Assembly (NCBI GenBank): GCA_013287605.1
Contig: JABDDM010000004.1
Location: 233 to 64,232 of the forward strand
Direction: 5' to 3'
DNA length: 64,000 nt
DNA from: Ignavibacteria bacterium
GTDB taxonomy: Bacteria > Bacteroidota > Ignavibacteria > Palsa-1295
The notes under the pieces are model-generated. The model had not been told where the DNA came from. It was given only the letters and a program-made list of their open reading frames with translations, and ran no database searches. This document shows, piece after piece, positions 49,877-55,013 of the stretch (position 1 is its first letter; every line of letters starts with the position of its first letter). The position numbers and the translations under genes are program-made.

Positions 49877-50341
49877 GTGGATACATCGACCGCATATGGC
49901 ATCGAAGCCGGGCGTGCGCTTGATCTTTGGACGAAGCTGGCACGCGCGTTCACGACGTTTAACAAATTGACCATCAAGGATATTTCTGCGTATGGATTAA
50001 CACAGCCGCAGTTCGCTGTGCTTGAAACCATCGGACATCTTGGCCCGATGACCATCGGACTGCTCTGCAAGAAGATGCTGGTCTCCGGTGGGAATATGAC
50101 CGTGGTGTTGGATAATCTCCAGCGTGAAGGTCTGGTTGAGCGGGTAACAAATAAAGATGACCGTCGCTCTATCGAGATACGCTTGAGTGCGGAAGGCACA
50201 AGGCTGTTTAGCGAGATCTTCCCCAAGCATGCGAGTTATGTCGCGAATATCGCGAAGGTTCTCACGCCTGAAGAACAACGTGATCTTGCCGCAATGCTAA
50301 AGAAGCTTGGTACCTCATTGTCAGAAAGATTTGACGGCTGA
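49877..50341 (+). CDS. MarR family transcriptional regulator
   Basis: Winged-helix region LTQPQFAVLETIGHLGPMTIGLLCKKMLVSGGNMTVVLDNLQREGLVERVTNKDDRRS. GTG start. Divergent from the patatin-like gene. Confidence 0.85.
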   Translation: MDTSTAYGIEAGRALDLWTKLARAFTTFNKLTIKDISAYGLTQPQFAVLETIGHLGPMTIGLLCKKMLVSGGNMTVVLDNLQREGLVERVTNKDDRRSIEIRLSAEGTRLFSEIFPKHASYVANIAKVLTPEEQRDLAAMLKKLGTSLSERFDG

Positions 50342-51776
50342 TTTCAAACCTTTCCTTCTTCGATTCATCCGATCTATCAGCAGCGGCACGATCGAGAATA
50401 CAAGCCCGGCATACATCGGCTCCATTCCCCACAAGTACTGAGGCGAGACCGCATCGCCACGAGTTACCCCAAGGAGGTAAGCTGTGAGCGATCCCGAGAG
50501 TCCCAGCACCGTACTCCAGAATGCAGCCTTGGGACTGGGACGCCATTTGGGGAAATAGCTTAATGTTAGCGGGAAGAGAATCGCTGGCACCATGATCGAT
50601 CCGAGCGCATACCAGATCAAATAGATCTTCGGCGTGATCTGAATTATGACAAACGTAACAATCGCGGTGATAAGCAATCCGTAGCGAGTGAACCGCGTGA
50701 TCTTCGTAACATCTCCATACCCAAACAATCGCCAAAGGATATCATGACCTACAATCGTAGCGCTTGTAAACGTGAAGGCATCGACCGCACTCAATTCGGA
50801 TGCGAGTAAGCCAGTGTAGAATACACCTTTGAGTCCCATCGGCAGCACACGTTCTGCGAGCGCTGGATAGGCGAATCGACTTTCAGGAAGCGAGGCGAAT
50901 GCCGCTCTGGCATAAAGCCCCGCAAGATTCGTCATCAGATCAAAAACCAGCCAGCAGCCAACCGAGATAATCAATCCCCACTTCGCGACCTGGGGCTTCT
51001 TTGCAGCAAACACTCGCGTGTTCACATTCGGATCGACGAGCGTGCTAAGCGCAATGATGTACCACACAGCGATGTACCACGGACTAAGCCCGCCTGTCGG
51101 CTTCAAATGACCCGGCGGAACGTGTGATACAATAAAACTCCAACCACCAAATGTTTGGTAAGCGTATGGCAGAACCACTGCAAAGCCGAAGAACATTGTC
51201 AGGAAGCGCAGCGAATCTGCCCGCACAGGTGCTCGCAAACCGCCCATCAGCAGATACGGTAATGGAGTAACGACCGCAATGATCATCCCTAATGTCGTAT
51301 TGATTCCAAAAAAACCACTGATACAGCGTGCCCAGCGTCATGATATATCCAGCAGGACTCGTCAGGAAGAAGACGATTCCTGCACCAAGATAGCCCGTAC
51401 GCTCCCCGTAGGTTGATCGCAGGCGATCAGGAATGGTCGCATTCGCACGATCGCTGTTAACTCTGTGCGCCAGAAAGAACGCGAAAAGAAGTGCTGCGGC
51501 ATAATAAGGTATGCCGAAGACAACCCACATCACGATTCCTTTATCATACGAGAACTCGCCAACGCCAAGCACTCCGCCATACCACATCGTGACGAGAGTC
51601 GCGACGAATGCAGGTATTGTCAGCGTTCGACCGGCGAGGATAAAGTCTTCTGCATCGCTCTTGGGCTTATGCCGGCGAACGGTGATGAAACCGATGAGTG
51701 AATTGGCAGCGATATAGAAAATGATGATCGCAAGATCGAGTCCGCCTAAATGTGGCGTGAGCGAAGTTGACATCAT
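50321..51776 (-). pseudogene. sodium:solute symporter (SSS) family transporter interrupted by a 1-nt frameshift
   Basis: Track ORFs 51084-51776 and 50321-51286 are the N- and C-terminal parts of one SSS protein. Removing one base from the A7 run at 51308-51314 gives the continuous sequence ...LYQWFFGINTTLGMIIAVVTPLPYLLMGG... (about 484 aa). Confidence 0.75.
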
Positions 51777-51780
51777 CTTT

Positions 51781-52431
51781 TTATTTGCTCTTCACTCGCT
51801 CGAGGAACACGATCAGTGCGCCTGAAGTCATGCTCACCGATGCTTCGTCCGAGAGCATGCGATTGCTCAAGCCTTCTCGCACGCCGAGCATCATATCTTC
51901 GTCGTTGAGCGGGTACTCAAATCCGCGCAGCTTCACTTTGAGCGAGATTGGGTATGGTATGAGAGAGACTCGACGTCCAGCCCACCCGCTTACGCGGATT
52001 TCGCCTGGGCTATGCATGAACTGTATTTTATGGTTTAAGTCATATGCCATGAAGACGGGAAACCTCGATGCGTATCGCATCATCACGCTGTAATTTGTCA
52101 AGGTATGATCCTGTCTCCCACCGCCACCGTGCCCTAGCACGATTACCCCATCGATCGCATGGGCGAGCATCCACTTAAGCGCCTTTTCGCAATCGCCTGT
52201 TTCCTGATCCGGAATGTTGACGATCTGCACATCCTCACTGGCGGCCATCTTTAAATCCTTTGGCGTGATAGAGTCAATGTCACCTATGATTACGTCTGGT
52301 ATGATATTGTGCTTGAAAGTATAATGGGCAGCGCCATCTGCGCAGATGATACGATCGCTCCCTTCAATCATCGCGCTGACTTCCGCAATCGGAAGATCAA
52401 TATCGCCCGCAAGCAAGAGTACTGCTCTCAT
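51781..52431 (-). CDS. thiN: thiamine pyrophosphokinase
   Basis: RIICADGAAHYTFKHNIIPDVIIGDIDSITPKDL is a TPK catalytic motif of the GDxDS type. 216 aa. ATGA overlap with the upstream receptor gene. Confidence 0.85.
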   Translation of the reverse strand: MRAVLLLAGDIDLPIAEVSAMIEGSDRIICADGAAHYTFKHNIIPDVIIGDIDSITPKDLKMAASEDVQIVNIPDQETGDCEKALKWMLAHAIDGVIVLGHGGGGRQDHTLTNYSVMMRYASRFPVFMAYDLNHKIQFMHSPGEIRVSGWAGRRVSLIPYPISLKVKLRGFEYPLNDEDMMLGVREGLSNRMLSDEASVSMTSGALIVFLERVKSK

Positions 52432-54731
52432 AGTCCGATCTCGATTTGTCCAAAAAGATTGAACGGCGCACCGACAAAGAAGCCGAGGTCCTTTTCGACA
52501 TAGCTTGTATAGAGCACGTTCGTAAGGTTATTCGCCGTGATCTTGAACTGCAGATAGCTAAGTCCGAGTACCTTCGCCAGTTTGTAACTGGCTGAGCCGT
52601 TAAACAGAACGTATGCCGCATTCTTATAAAGATCTGAATTAAATATATCTCCGTAGAACGCTCCAACGTATCGGCCTGTGATTGCGATGTTAAATCCTGC
52701 CGCCGGGGCGAGCATGAGCATCAGGCCTCCGGTCGTTGAGGGAAATCCGATTGGGACCTTGCCATTTACACTAATCGTATCGGAGTATTTCGAAAACTGA
52801 GTGATCTCGTTGTGGCTGGCAGTGAACGTTAGCGCAAGTGATATCCAATCCGCAAAACGCGCATCGATGGATGTCTCCAGACCATAGTGAAGCGATTTGT
52901 CCGCGTTGGCAACGATTGAAGAGCCATAGTGATCCGTTCGTCCTGTTTTTATTATTTCGTCCCTGAAGCCCATGTAATAGCCGTTTACGGATAGACTAAG
53001 ATCGTTGATCGCTGCGTTCTGCAAAATCGATGACCTGGCTCCCAGTTCCAGATCGAGGAGGTGTTCGGGTTTGATGTTTGGATTACTGAAATCATACCCT
53101 CCGTCCGCAGTTCGCGCAAAATTCGGTTCGTGAAGGAAGTCAGGATTGTAGTAATCAGTAAGCACCGGCTCGCGAGACGTGTATGCAACAGAAGCGAAAA
53201 TACTGGCCTTCTCAAAGGCATAGTTTACGCCTAGTCGAGGATTAACGAACAGGAGTGGCACTGTAAAATCATAACTCTTCCAGCCTACGCTGGTACCGGT
53301 CGCTGTTGACATTCCGCTATCGACATAAAATGGCTTCTGATTGTAAAACAGATAACGATCACTTACCACTTGCAAACTGGCAAGCGCGCTAAGTGGAGTC
53401 GAGAGCGATAGCGCATCCGAAAGATATCCGGCGATCACATCTTTTCCACCATTGTACTCGTAAAAGTGATAATCACCAGGAAGATCGACAGGCATCTGGG
53501 CAGCAGAAAGCAATTTACCCCAATGCGTTGATCGATAGCGGCGAAGTTCTGCTCCGGCAGTGAACGTGCCATTTTCATGCTCGACTTCAACACGAGGCAG
53601 CCAGCCTATCTGATCACCGGCGACGTAAGCTCGCACAAGCTCATTGCCTAATGTCGAATCAGAGATCGGCAAACCGGTGAACCCATAGCGCGCACCATAT
53701 TGAGGAGTAAGGCAATAGTATTCAGTATGAGAATATCCGGTGAATGGCTTGACCCACGTTCCATCAAAATCGAATTGGCCGCTGCCATGGATATAAAAGA
53801 TTGCGTTCGAGACCTTGATCGAAGAACTTGGATTCCAGGTCGCGAGCAACTCGTAATGCGGCTGGAAGAAATCTTCGCGCTCCTCTGGCCTTCGTTGATA
53901 CGTTAACTGTTCCGATAAGTTGACCTTACGCAGGACGGGGTCTGTTAGTTCGGGACCATTCGGAACGGTTGGAAAGACTCCATAATAGTTCAGACCATCC
54001 GAGATCGGTCCGCCATAAAAATTGGCCTGAAGGCTGAACAATGAGTCGAATCGTGAAGCAGAGATATAGTACGAATTGAGATTGACGAATGAAAAATTGC
54101 GATAGCCATCCGTACTTAACTGACTTAACCGCGCGGTGATCAGATACTTATCATCGATGATACCCGAATTCAGCGTTGCCGAATACTTCTGTGTGTTGTA
54201 ACTTCCGTATCCGCCCGAAAAAGAGATTTGCCTGATCGCGTTCGGAGTTGTCTCGACATTGATCGAACCCCCAATTGCTGGAGGACCGTAAAATGCTGCG
54301 CCCGCGCCTCTCTCCACCGTCAACGTGCCAGTGCTCGCACTGAGGTCCGGCATATCGATCCAATAGACATTATGATCTTCCGGATCATTTTGCGGAATGC
54401 CATTAACGAGAATGGATAACCGTCGCTGATCAAATCCACGAATACTGACGAACGAATATCCAGTCTCCGTGCCGTTGTAAGAATAGACTGTGGCCGAAGG
54501 ATTTGTCGCAATAAGCTGCGGAACATCCTGAATTGTGGTCCGTGGATCAAGCGTGCTTCGATCGTATCTGTCGATCGGCGCGGGGGTCTTCCCTTCTGTC
54601 GCTGGAAAACCGGTAACGATGACTGGTTTGCCGATGACCTTTCGATGAACCGAATCGACAGAGGTCTGAGCGATTGATGTTGTACTAAATCCAAGAATGA
54701 GAAAAAGAGACAGGAAGAAAAGTCGGCGCAT
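52428..54731 (-). CDS. TonB-dependent outer-membrane receptor (TPP-riboswitch controlled, probable thiamine/precursor uptake)
   Basis: Signal peptide MRRLFFLSLFLILGFSTTSIAQ, plug region (ISIRGFDQRRLSILVNGIPQNDPE), 22-strand-size barrel, terminal ...FGQIEIGL. The riboswitch lies 80 nt upstream. Confidence 0.85.
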   Translation of the reverse strand: MRRLFFLSLFLILGFSTTSIAQTSVDSVHRKVIGKPVIVTGFPATEGKTPAPIDRYDRSTLDPRTTIQDVPQLIATNPSATVYSYNGTETGYSFVSIRGFDQRRLSILVNGIPQNDPEDHNVYWIDMPDLSASTGTLTVERGAGAAFYGPPAIGGSINVETTPNAIRQISFSGGYGSYNTQKYSATLNSGIIDDKYLITARLSQLSTDGYRNFSFVNLNSYYISASRFDSLFSLQANFYGGPISDGLNYYGVFPTVPNGPELTDPVLRKVNLSEQLTYQRRPEEREDFFQPHYELLATWNPSSSIKVSNAIFYIHGSGQFDFDGTWVKPFTGYSHTEYYCLTPQYGARYGFTGLPISDSTLGNELVRAYVAGDQIGWLPRVEVEHENGTFTAGAELRRYRSTHWGKLLSAAQMPVDLPGDYHFYEYNGGKDVIAGYLSDALSLSTPLSALASLQVVSDRYLFYNQKPFYVDSGMSTATGTSVGWKSYDFTVPLLFVNPRLGVNYAFEKASIFASVAYTSREPVLTDYYNPDFLHEPNFARTADGGYDFSNPNIKPEHLLDLELGARSSILQNAAINDLSLSVNGYYMGFRDEIIKTGRTDHYGSSIVANADKSLHYGLETSIDARFADWISLALTFTASHNEITQFSKYSDTISVNGKVPIGFPSTTGGLMLMLAPAAGFNIAITGRYVGAFYGDIFNSDLYKNAAYVLFNGSASYKLAKVLGLSYLQFKITANNLTNVLYTSYVEKDLGFFVGAPFNLFGQIEIGL

Positions 54732-54811
54732 TGTATGGTCGCGATAAGAATTCGGCGGGGGAAGGACGACCGGAGCGCAATTGGTGAGCTAAGTGTGCTC
54801 AAAGGCTTCGC

Positions 54812-54897
54812 ATCGTTTCCCTTCGCTGGCATGATCCAGATCAGGTTCCAAGGGTGAATCTCAGCCTGATCCCCATGGATCAGACACCCCTAACGAT
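54812..54897 (-). promoter_or_regulatory. TPP (THI-box) riboswitch aptamer
   Basis: Minus strand: AUCGUU-AGGGGUGUCUGAUCCAUGGGGAUCAGGCUGAGAUUCACCCUUGGAACCUGAUCUGGAUCAUGCCAGCGAAGGGA-AACGAU. It contains the conserved GGGGUG, CUGAGA, ACCUGAUCUGGAU.AUGCCAGCG.AGGGA elements and a 6-bp P1 stem. Confidence 0.92.
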
Positions 54898-55013
54898 CGC
54901 GCTGCGCAGCAAAGCCGCACAGAGTGACGGTGATGAAATTGTTTGGAGAGGCGAAAAATTCCGAGGAAGTTGGAGAAGCACCACCGACTTGCCTTCTTAG
55001 CCTTGGTAAAGCA

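What the first reader, a model, noticed from the sequence alone, without database searches (positions are those of the whole stretch)
50321..54897. TPP-riboswitch-controlled thiamine salvage operon: TonB-dependent receptor, thiamine pyrophosphokinase, SSS-family transporter
- **Riboswitch:** a textbook THI-box aptamer (54812-54897, minus strand) lies 80 nt upstream of a 767-aa TonB-dependent receptor.
- **Operon linkage:** the receptor stop overlaps (ATGA) the thiamine pyrophosphokinase start. Four nt after the kinase stop, a sodium:solute symporter family gene begins.
- **Logic:** outer-membrane uptake, inner-membrane uptake and pyrophosphorylation to TPP. This matches the riboswitch-regulated OM receptor/PnuT/TPK operons described in Bacteroides.
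- **Difference:** an SSS-family permease occupies the PnuT position. Comparative genomics has predicted an SSS-type thiamine-related transporter (ThiV), but I cannot verify orthology from sequence alone.
- **Platform:** no obvious terminator hairpin lies between aptamer and start codon. Since this genome rarely uses SD sequences, how the expression platform works is unclear.
Basis: partly seen in the sequence, partly recalled or inferred. Interest (0 to 1): 0.58.

Follow-up and report, generated by a model that had tools for sequence, protein, structure and literature searches.

The report
Riboswitch-controlled thiamine uptake operon
A vitamin-B1-sensing RNA switch controls three genes (outer-membrane receptor, thiamine-activating kinase, sodium-symporter-type inner-membrane carrier) that let a B1-dependent bacterium scavenge thiamine; the layout is already in print, the carrier family has never been tested, and in this assembly the carrier gene is split by one extra base.

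Summary
Rfam finds a full-length TPP aptamer at 54801-54901(-) (69.9 bits, cut-off 54.3), the only one in this 68%-complete MAG. Behind it lie a TonB-dependent receptor, a thiamine pyrophosphokinase (ATGA overlap) and an SSS-family permease (4-nt spacer).

The permease is split by one extra T in a T7 run (51308-51314). All 18 relatives with the gene have it intact.

The permease belongs to a distinct SSS clade, separate from PanF and PutP. Of 63 related loci with enough upstream DNA, 44 have a TPP riboswitch upstream and 39 an adjacent kinase gene. Among 26 related genomes, 19 carry the permease and 6 carry ThiC, never both. Operon carriers lack ThiC, ThiE, ThiD, ThiG, ThiM and PnuT, so intact thiamine is the likely cargo.

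Most related loci (43 of 52 aptamers) have an intrinsic terminator after the aptamer. The window's clade does not, and its output mechanism is unresolved.

The same layout was noted in Caldithrix abyssi (PMC5317091), and this scan has found it on other DNA several times. It is a new member of a known kind with an untested carrier.

The parts
54902..54922 (-). 5' leader hairpin just before P1 (9-bp stem, UUU loop)
   Evidence: Predicted in every fold of the leader. It is conserved in G001 and L003, with base changes on both arms in L003 (alignment A3). Function unknown.
54801..54901 (-). TPP riboswitch aptamer (THI element)
   Evidence: RF00059, 69.9 bits against a cut-off of 54.3, model positions 1-105. 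It is the only match in the whole MAG.
54732..54800 (-). Expression-platform leader. It holds a small hairpin (54786-54800), a pyrimidine tract (54754-54771) and the start region. There is no intrinsic terminator.
   Evidence: No terminator-like site. The best partner of the P1 3' strand is the pyrimidine tract, 40 nt after P1 (dG -15.0, not significant against shuffles). The 80 nt after P1 hold 30 C and 15 G.
52428..54731 (-). TonB-dependent outer-membrane receptor, 767 aa
   Evidence: Plug domain PF07715, 50 bits. Signal-peptide-like N-terminus and a TonB-box-like PVIVTG read from the translation. Homologous receptors lie behind the riboswitch in 38 of 63 related loci.
51781..52431 (-). Thiamine pyrophosphokinase, 216 aa
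   Evidence: TIGR01378 equivalog, 126.6 bits against a cut-off of 76.4. Pfam TPK_catalytic and TPK_B1_binding. ATGA overlap with the receptor stop.
51315..51776 (-). SSS-family permease, N-terminal part (about 154 codons before the frameshift)
   Evidence: Matches profile positions 3-154 of the family alignment A1, 240 bits. 96.8% identical to the L002 ortholog, dN/dS 0.019.
51308..51314 (-). T7 run (A7 on the plus strand) carrying one extra base: a +1 frameshift in the permease
   Evidence: Three-frame translation. Orthologs encode the same W-F-F-G with TTT TTC, TTC TTC or TTC TTT. Removing one T gives a 484-aa frame with no other lesion.
50321..51307 (-). SSS-family permease, C-terminal part
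   Evidence: PF00474, 62 bits. Matches A1 positions 149-469, 457 bits. 89% identical to P0001. dN/dS 0.077 against L002.

Best explanation
This is a thiamine scavenging and activation operon that is switched off by its end product.

- With little TPP in the cell, the leader lets the operon be expressed.
- The TonB-dependent receptor brings thiamine across the outer membrane.
- The SSS-family permease carries it across the inner membrane, probably with sodium.
- The pyrophosphokinase converts it in one step to TPP.
- TPP then binds the aptamer and shuts the operon down.

Shown here: the aptamer, the three gene identities, their tight coupling, and the comparative link of the permease clade to TPP riboswitches, kinase genes and thiamine auxotrophy.

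Inferred: thiamine as the permease's cargo, sodium coupling, and OFF logic.

The output step in this lineage is unresolved. Most related loci use an intrinsic terminator, and this clade has none. A C-rich leader with Rho present, or masking of the start region, are the two candidates.

In this assembly the permease gene carries a +1 frameshift in a T7 run. It is either very recent or an assembly error.
For: Identity of the parts
- Aptamer above the Rfam cut-off and unique in the genome.
- Kinase passes its equivalog model.
- ATGA overlap and 4-nt spacer.

Conserved context of the permease
- The order receptor-kinase-permease is kept, with different flanking genes, at 89% to 35% permease identity.
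- TPP aptamers lie upstream in L003, L004, L005 and L007, and directly before a lone permease in L009.
- Of 63 loci from named MAGs of many phyla with at least 3.6 kb upstream, 44 have a same-strand TPP aptamer upstream and 39 an adjacent kinase gene. Only 11 have neither. Rfam agreed on 21 of the loci that I re-checked.

Phyletic pattern in 26 related genomes
- 19 have a strong permease match and 6 have ThiC, with no overlap. One genus holds one genome of each kind.
- Nearly every genome has a single TPP riboswitch. It sits either before the thiC cluster or before this operon.
- Five operon carriers that are at least 95% complete show only weak partial hits (29 bits or less) to ThiD, ThiG and ThiM. 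They have no ThiC, no PnuC-type carrier and no significant ThiE match beyond one weak partial hit.
- The kinase is found in all 15 same-family genomes.

Placement of the permease
- All 88 family rows form one clade (SH-aLRT 99) apart from E. coli PanF, PutP and four paralogs. Riboswitch-linked rows occur throughout, including the deepest branch.
Against: - No transport, binding or expression data exist for any member of this permease clade.
- 19 of 63 loci show no riboswitch within 6 kb, and 11 show neither riboswitch nor kinase.
- The window's genome is only 68% complete, so absences in it alone are weak.
- Holo against apo folding gives no clear change in start-site accessibility.
- The anti-P1 duplex is no better than shuffled sequence.
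- The permease gene is broken as assembled.
Confidence: 0.85

Rival explanations
1. The permease imports a thiamine precursor or breakdown product (HMP or similar), as proposed for ThiV of SAR11, and not intact thiamine.
For: - ThiV, the known riboswitch-linked SSS transporter, is assigned to HMP in Pelagibacter (PMC11452348).
- 13 of 63 loci have riboswitch, receptor and permease without an adjacent kinase gene.
Against: - Operon-carrying genomes that are at least 95% complete lack ThiC and any true ThiD, ThiG or ThiM match. ThiE shows at most one weak partial hit. HMP could therefore not be built into thiamine.
- The permease is translationally coupled to a kinase that needs free thiamine.
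- By eye, the SAR11 protein shares only generic SSS motifs with this clade.
Confidence: 0.08
2. The frameshift is real. In this population the permease is a fresh pseudogene, or it is rescued only by rare slippage on the U7 run, so the operon's inner-membrane step is crippled.
For: - The split is in the sequence.
- Of 50 T or C runs of 7 or more lying in coding or candidate coding frames, only this one is a convincing gene break. The assembly is therefore not generally error-prone at homopolymers.
Against: - All 18 other genomes with the gene have it intact, including the same-genus genome.
- There is no second lesion, and dN/dS downstream of the break is 0.077.
- No other known thiamine carrier (PnuC type, ThiT) was found in the genome, though it is only 68% complete.
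- Loss of the only carrier in an auxotroph should be strongly selected against.
Confidence: 0.4
3. The permease is an unrelated solute carrier that merely sits next to thiamine genes.
For: - 11 of 63 loci have no thiamine-related neighbour.
- No curated model names the family.
Against: - The linkage persists across many phyla with changing flanks.
- A riboswitch lies directly before a lone permease in L009.
- Exclusion with ThiC is perfect in 26 genomes.
- Unlinked members are scattered in the tree and do not form a separate subfamily.
Confidence: 0.03

Closest known systems
Caldithrix abyssi locus Cabys_3975-3977 (Kublanov et al. 2017, PMC5317091)
   Same: [quoted passage not shown] The authors read it as a thiamine uptake system in a thiamine auxotroph. 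Calditrichia loci L080 and L086 fall inside the same permease clade.
   Different: The phylum differs. The gene order given there is receptor, symporter, kinase. Here the permease is last and frameshifted, and the leader has no terminator. I did not align the Caldithrix proteins themselves.
Bacteroides OMthi - PnuT - Tnr3 thiamine transport genes under TPP riboswitches (bioRxiv 10.1101/867226)
   Same: The logic is the same: a riboswitch, an outer-membrane TonB-dependent receptor, an inner-membrane carrier and a pyrophosphokinase. In B. uniformis they form one operon.
   Different: The inner-membrane carrier there is PnuT (PnuC family). No PnuC-family gene was found here or in five near-complete relatives. 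An SSS-family protein takes its place.
ThiV (Rodionov et al. 2002 as cited in PMC2211319; SAR11_0811 in PMC11452348)
   Same: An SSS-superfamily transporter, homologous to PanF and placed under a THI element. This clade is also a remote PanF homolog (hhalign probability 99.4%, 22% identity) and is riboswitch-linked.
   Different: SAR11 ThiV is assigned to HMP in an organism that keeps ThiD and ThiE. Here the carriers lack those genes and pair the permease with a pyrophosphokinase. By eye the SAR11 sequence lacks this clade's signature motifs. Orthology was not computed.

Membership tests
TPP riboswitch (Rfam RF00059) | Covariance-model score at or above the gathering score over the full model | tested here: met
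   69.9 bits against 54.3, model positions 1-105
TPP riboswitch (Rfam RF00059) | Lies 5' of a thiamine synthesis or transport gene, on the same strand | tested here: met
   About 80 nt before the receptor-kinase-permease genes. The same position is seen in relatives.
TPP riboswitch (Rfam RF00059) | Binds TPP and changes expression | not testable with these tools
   Needs in-line probing or a reporter assay
Thiamine pyrophosphokinase (NCBIfam TIGR01378, equivalog) | Score above the curated cut-off, with both Pfam domains | tested here: met
   126.6 bits against 76.4. PF04263 at 91 bits and PF04265 at 34.5 bits.
TonB-dependent receptor | N-terminal plug domain | tested here: met
   PF07715, 50 bits against a cut-off of 23.9, residues 48-155
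TonB-dependent receptor | C-terminal 22-strand barrel recognised by a barrel model | tested here: inconclusive
   Only PF14905 at 25.5 bits, below its cut-off of 27. Homologous receptors in L005 and L007 carry PF00593.
Thiamine receptor OMthi / BT2390 | Sequence orthology to B. thetaiotaomicron BT2390 | not tested
   No reference sequence could be reached with these tools. Only the context (directly behind a TPP riboswitch) is shared.
Sodium:solute symporter superfamily (Pfam PF00474) | Pfam score above the gathering score | tested here: met
   The C piece scores 62.2 bits against 22.8. Full-length homologs all carry PF00474.
PanF (TIGR02119) and PutP (TIGR02121) equivalogs | Score above the curated equivalog cut-off | tested here: not met
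   PanF 72-87 bits against 328. PutP 41-73 bits against 515.5. A separate clade in the tree.
ThiV (THI-element-regulated PanF homolog) | SSS-type PanF homolog placed under a TPP riboswitch | tested here: met
   hhalign against E. coli PanF gives probability 99.4%. A riboswitch lies upstream in 44 of 63 loci, and directly upstream in L009.
ThiV (THI-element-regulated PanF homolog) | Orthology to a named ThiV such as SAR11_0811 | not tested
   The sequence is available only as text in a supplement and has no reference for the tools. By eye it shares no clade-specific motif.
Bacteroides OMthi-PnuT-Tnr3 operon | PnuT (PnuC family) as the inner-membrane carrier | tested here: not met
   PF04973 was not found in the own genome or in five relatives that are at least 95% complete

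The most novel reading that the evidence does not exclude
This SSS clade is a dedicated sodium:thiamine symporter family. It is separate from PnuT and from the HMP-type ThiV of SAR11. It is the only inner-membrane thiamine route in many thiamine-auxotrophic Kapabacteria, Ignavibacteria, Bacteroidota, Calditrichia, Zixibacteria, Armatimonadota and others. In the window's own clade the riboswitch has lost the ancestral terminator and acts by another route, such as Rho-dependent termination on the C-rich leader.
Probability: 0.55. Interest if true: 0.45.

Novelty: new member of a known kind. Interest (0 to 1): 0.3.

Why it matters
- Thiamine auxotrophy is common in uncultured bacteria, and models of vitamin exchange depend on knowing the carriers.
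- This permease clade occurs in at least 587 species' genomes, yet it has no curated model and no experiment.
- Naming it correctly would change B1 phenotype predictions for many MAGs.
- The clean either-or pattern with ThiC gives a simple genomic marker for thiamine dependence in this lineage.
- For this particular window the result is ordinary: a well-formed example of a locus type already noted in print.

Tried and rejected
Tools that did not help
- A search of the protein atlas gave only generic SSS clusters.
- A PDB sequence search of the receptor gave one weak hit.
- Complex prediction and structure prediction were not used. They would not have changed the verdict.

Expression-platform tests
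- Translational masking: constrained holo and apo folds of the window, G001 and L003 leaders gave nearly equal pairing around the start codon (0.42 and 0.37; 0.61 and 0.68; 0.45 and 0.54). The unconstrained fold is no more stable than shuffles (z -0.17).
- Anti-P1 duplex: energies are not better than shuffled sequence, even in L004, which has a clear terminator. The test has little power.

Other checks
- Systematic homopolymer error: five candidate breaks at runs of 7 or more. Two are plainly neighbouring genes, one run is read through in frame, and one is unclear. Only the permease is a convincing split.
- Comparison with SAR11 ThiV: not computed, because the sequence has no tool reference. 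I only read the published alignment.
- My covariance model's two weak hits in L041 were not confirmed by Rfam.
Full report
**1. What is there**

- Rfam's TPP model matches 54801-54901 on the minus strand over its whole length (69.9 bits, gathering score 54.3, E 1.1e-11).
- It is the only TPP match in the genome that holds the window. That genome is a MAG of 2.2 Mb in 101 contigs, 68% complete.
- Three co-directional genes follow:
  - A 767-aa TonB-dependent receptor (52428-54731). It has a Plug domain, a signal-peptide-like N-terminus and a TonB-box-like PVIVTG.
  - A 216-aa thiamine pyrophosphokinase (51781-52431). It passes the equivalog model TIGR01378 at 126.6 bits against 76.4.
  - An SSS-family permease (50321-51776).
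- The receptor stop and kinase start overlap as ATGA.
- The permease ATG follows the kinase stop after four bases.
- A convergent MarR gene (49877-50341) overlaps the permease's 3' end by 21 nt.

**2. The permease is split**

- The coding strand reads TGG followed by seven T, then GGA. One extra T throws the frame.
- Orthologs encode the same W-F-F-G with TTT TTC, TTC TTC or TTC TTT. The window's lineage first acquired TTT TTT and then, in the assembly at least, a seventh T.
- Removing one T gives a 484-aa frame with no other lesion.
- Against the closest ortholog (L002), dN/dS is 0.019 before the break and 0.077 after it, at dS of about 0.9 to 1.0. The break is therefore very recent or not real.
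- I took a census of T or C runs of 7 or more on coding strands of the whole MAG. 45 lie inside long open frames and five are candidate breaks. Only the permease is a convincing split gene. The assembly is not generally error-prone at homopolymers.

**3. Is the permease tied to thiamine?**

*Close and distant homologs*
- Homologs are about 475 aa and mostly from Kapabacteria and their neighbours.
- The order receptor-kinase-permease is kept, with unrelated flanking genes, at 89%, 75%, 71%, 60%, 56% and 35% permease identity.
- A 40% homolog has receptor and permease only.
- A 35% homolog in a deltaproteobacterial MAG stands alone.
- Rfam finds TPP aptamers before the receptor in L003, L004, L005 and L007, and directly before the lone permease in L009.

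*Survey of one genome per species*
- A scan with the family alignment A1 found relatives in at least 587 species. The best 80 loci come from Kapabacteria, Ignavibacteria, Kryptonia, Bacteroidota, Armatimonadota, Zixibacteria, Eisenbacteria, KSB1, Calditrichia and others.
- I built a covariance model from seven aptamers. It found 52 matches in those loci.
- 63 loci have at least 3.6 kb upstream:

| Architecture | Loci |
|---|---|
| riboswitch-receptor-kinase-permease | 25 |
| riboswitch-receptor-permease | 13 |
| riboswitch, another gene, kinase-permease | 6 |
| kinase-permease, no riboswitch | 8 |
| none of these | 11 |

- Rfam run on 21 of the riboswitch-negative loci agreed with these calls. 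It did not confirm the weak hits in L041.

**4. Phyletic pattern**

- In 26 related genomes, ThiC is found in six and a strong permease match in 19. None has both.
- One genus contains one genome of each kind.
- ThiE follows ThiC, apart from one genome that has ThiE only.
- The kinase is present in all 15 same-family genomes.
- Almost every genome has exactly one TPP riboswitch. It lies before the thiC cluster in the ThiC genomes. In 15 of the 19 permease genomes it lies about 3 kb upstream of kinase and permease on the same contig.
- Five operon carriers that are at least 95% complete give only weak, partial hits (29 bits or less) to ThiD, ThiG and ThiM, and no PnuC-family hit.
- The window's own genome shows no ThiC, ThiE, ThiD, PnuC-type or ThiT gene. 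At 68% completeness that counts only together with the relatives.
- Without ThiD and ThiE, HMP or thiazole cannot be used, and the kinase needs free thiamine. Intact thiamine is therefore the most likely cargo. This step is inference.

**5. Placement of the permease**

- Full-length members score far below every curated equivalog:
  - PanF: 72-87 bits against a cut-off of 328.
  - PutP: 41-73 bits against 515.
  - General SSS model: 80-120 bits against 184.
- The family profile aligns to E. coli PanF with probability 99.4% at 22% identity.
- P0001 aligns to E. coli PutP at 22% identity.
- I built a quick maximum-likelihood tree of 94 rows: 88 family members, E. coli PanF and PutP, and four paralogs from relatives.
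  - The family is one clade (SH-aLRT 99).
  - Riboswitch-linked members occur throughout, including the deepest branch.
  - Unlinked members are scattered.
  - Two rows (L075, L076) have very long branches and should not be trusted.
- The nearest solved structures by sequence are SLC5A7-type choline transporters (E 1.6e-27).
- The serine that aligns with PutP S340 is invariant in the family. That residue is a sodium ligand, from my own knowledge of PutP. This fits sodium coupling but does not show it.

**6. Expression platform**

- No terminator-like site lies between the aptamer and the start codon.
- In related loci, 43 of 52 aptamers are followed by a hairpin and T tract. Often the arms are of the type GCCGTTTTCC ... 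GGAAAACGGC, and the 5' arm is complementary to the P1 3' strand. That is the classic attenuator.
- The window's clade (window, the same-genus genome, L003, L112) lacks this.
- Features conserved in three of these four leaders (window, G001, L003; the more distant L112 aligns poorly outside the aptamer):
  - a hairpin just before P1, with changes on both arms in L003;
  - a small GAGC...GCUC hairpin after the aptamer;
  - a pyrimidine tract about 40 nt after P1. This is where the anti-terminator arm sits in L004.
- Forced holo and apo folds do not change start-site pairing in any of the three leaders tested.
- The leader after P1 has about twice as many C as G in all three. Rho is present in the genome (694 bits).
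- Shine-Dalgarno motifs are rare genome-wide.
- I therefore leave the output step open between Rho-dependent termination and masking of the start region. In Bacteroides, both transcriptional and translational TPP switches have been shown for transport genes (bioRxiv 10.1101/867226).

**7. Comparison with what is known**

- Kublanov et al. (PMC5317091) reported a TPP riboswitch upstream of a TonB-dependent receptor in Caldithrix abyssi. [quoted passage not shown]
- ThiV has been used since Rodionov et al. 2002 for THI-element-regulated PanF homologs (PMC2211319). It is listed as a B1 or HMP transporter in later work.
- This scan's earlier notes describe the same operon on other DNA in several genomes.
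- The window is thus a new member of a known kind. What remains open is experimental proof for the permease clade, its relation to named ThiV proteins, and the output mechanism in this lineage.

Noticed in passing
L055:3189-3441 and L081:3172-3429: Two TPP aptamers in tandem (about 60 nt apart) lie before the receptor-permease genes in two MAGs, an Ignavibacteriales and a Zixibacteria. Each scores 68-90 bits with my model.
   Followed up: no
L051:4432-5127: In an Armatimonadia locus, the gene between the TPP riboswitch and kinase-permease is a prepilin-like protein (N_methyl plus DUF1559) and not a TonB-dependent receptor. Five other loci have the same riboswitch-x-kinase-permease spacing.
   Followed up: partly
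window 54902-54922: A conserved 5' hairpin lies immediately before P1. Both arms are changed in L003 and a large insertion sits in its loop. Its role (stability, or part of the switch) is unknown.
   Followed up: partly
window 49877-50341: A MarR-family gene converges on the permease and overlaps its last 21 nt. The closest relative, L002, has the same neighbour, but more distant loci do not.
   Followed up: no
L029:1235-3661: A SufB gene interrupted by an intein with a LAGLIDADG homing endonuclease lies beside an Rrf2-SufC cluster, upstream of a kinase-permease pair that has no riboswitch.
   Followed up: no
L011:9443-9617: A cobalamin riboswitch (91.7 bits) lies before a periplasmic-binding and FecCD transporter pair. 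It is two genes downstream of a distant permease homolog whose neighbouring, divergent receptor has its own TPP riboswitch.
   Followed up: no
L071:8429-8820, L077:8474-8862, L085:6499-6887: RNase P RNA lies about 1.1 kb downstream of the kinase-permease pair in three riboswitch-less loci that cluster together in the tree.
   Followed up: no
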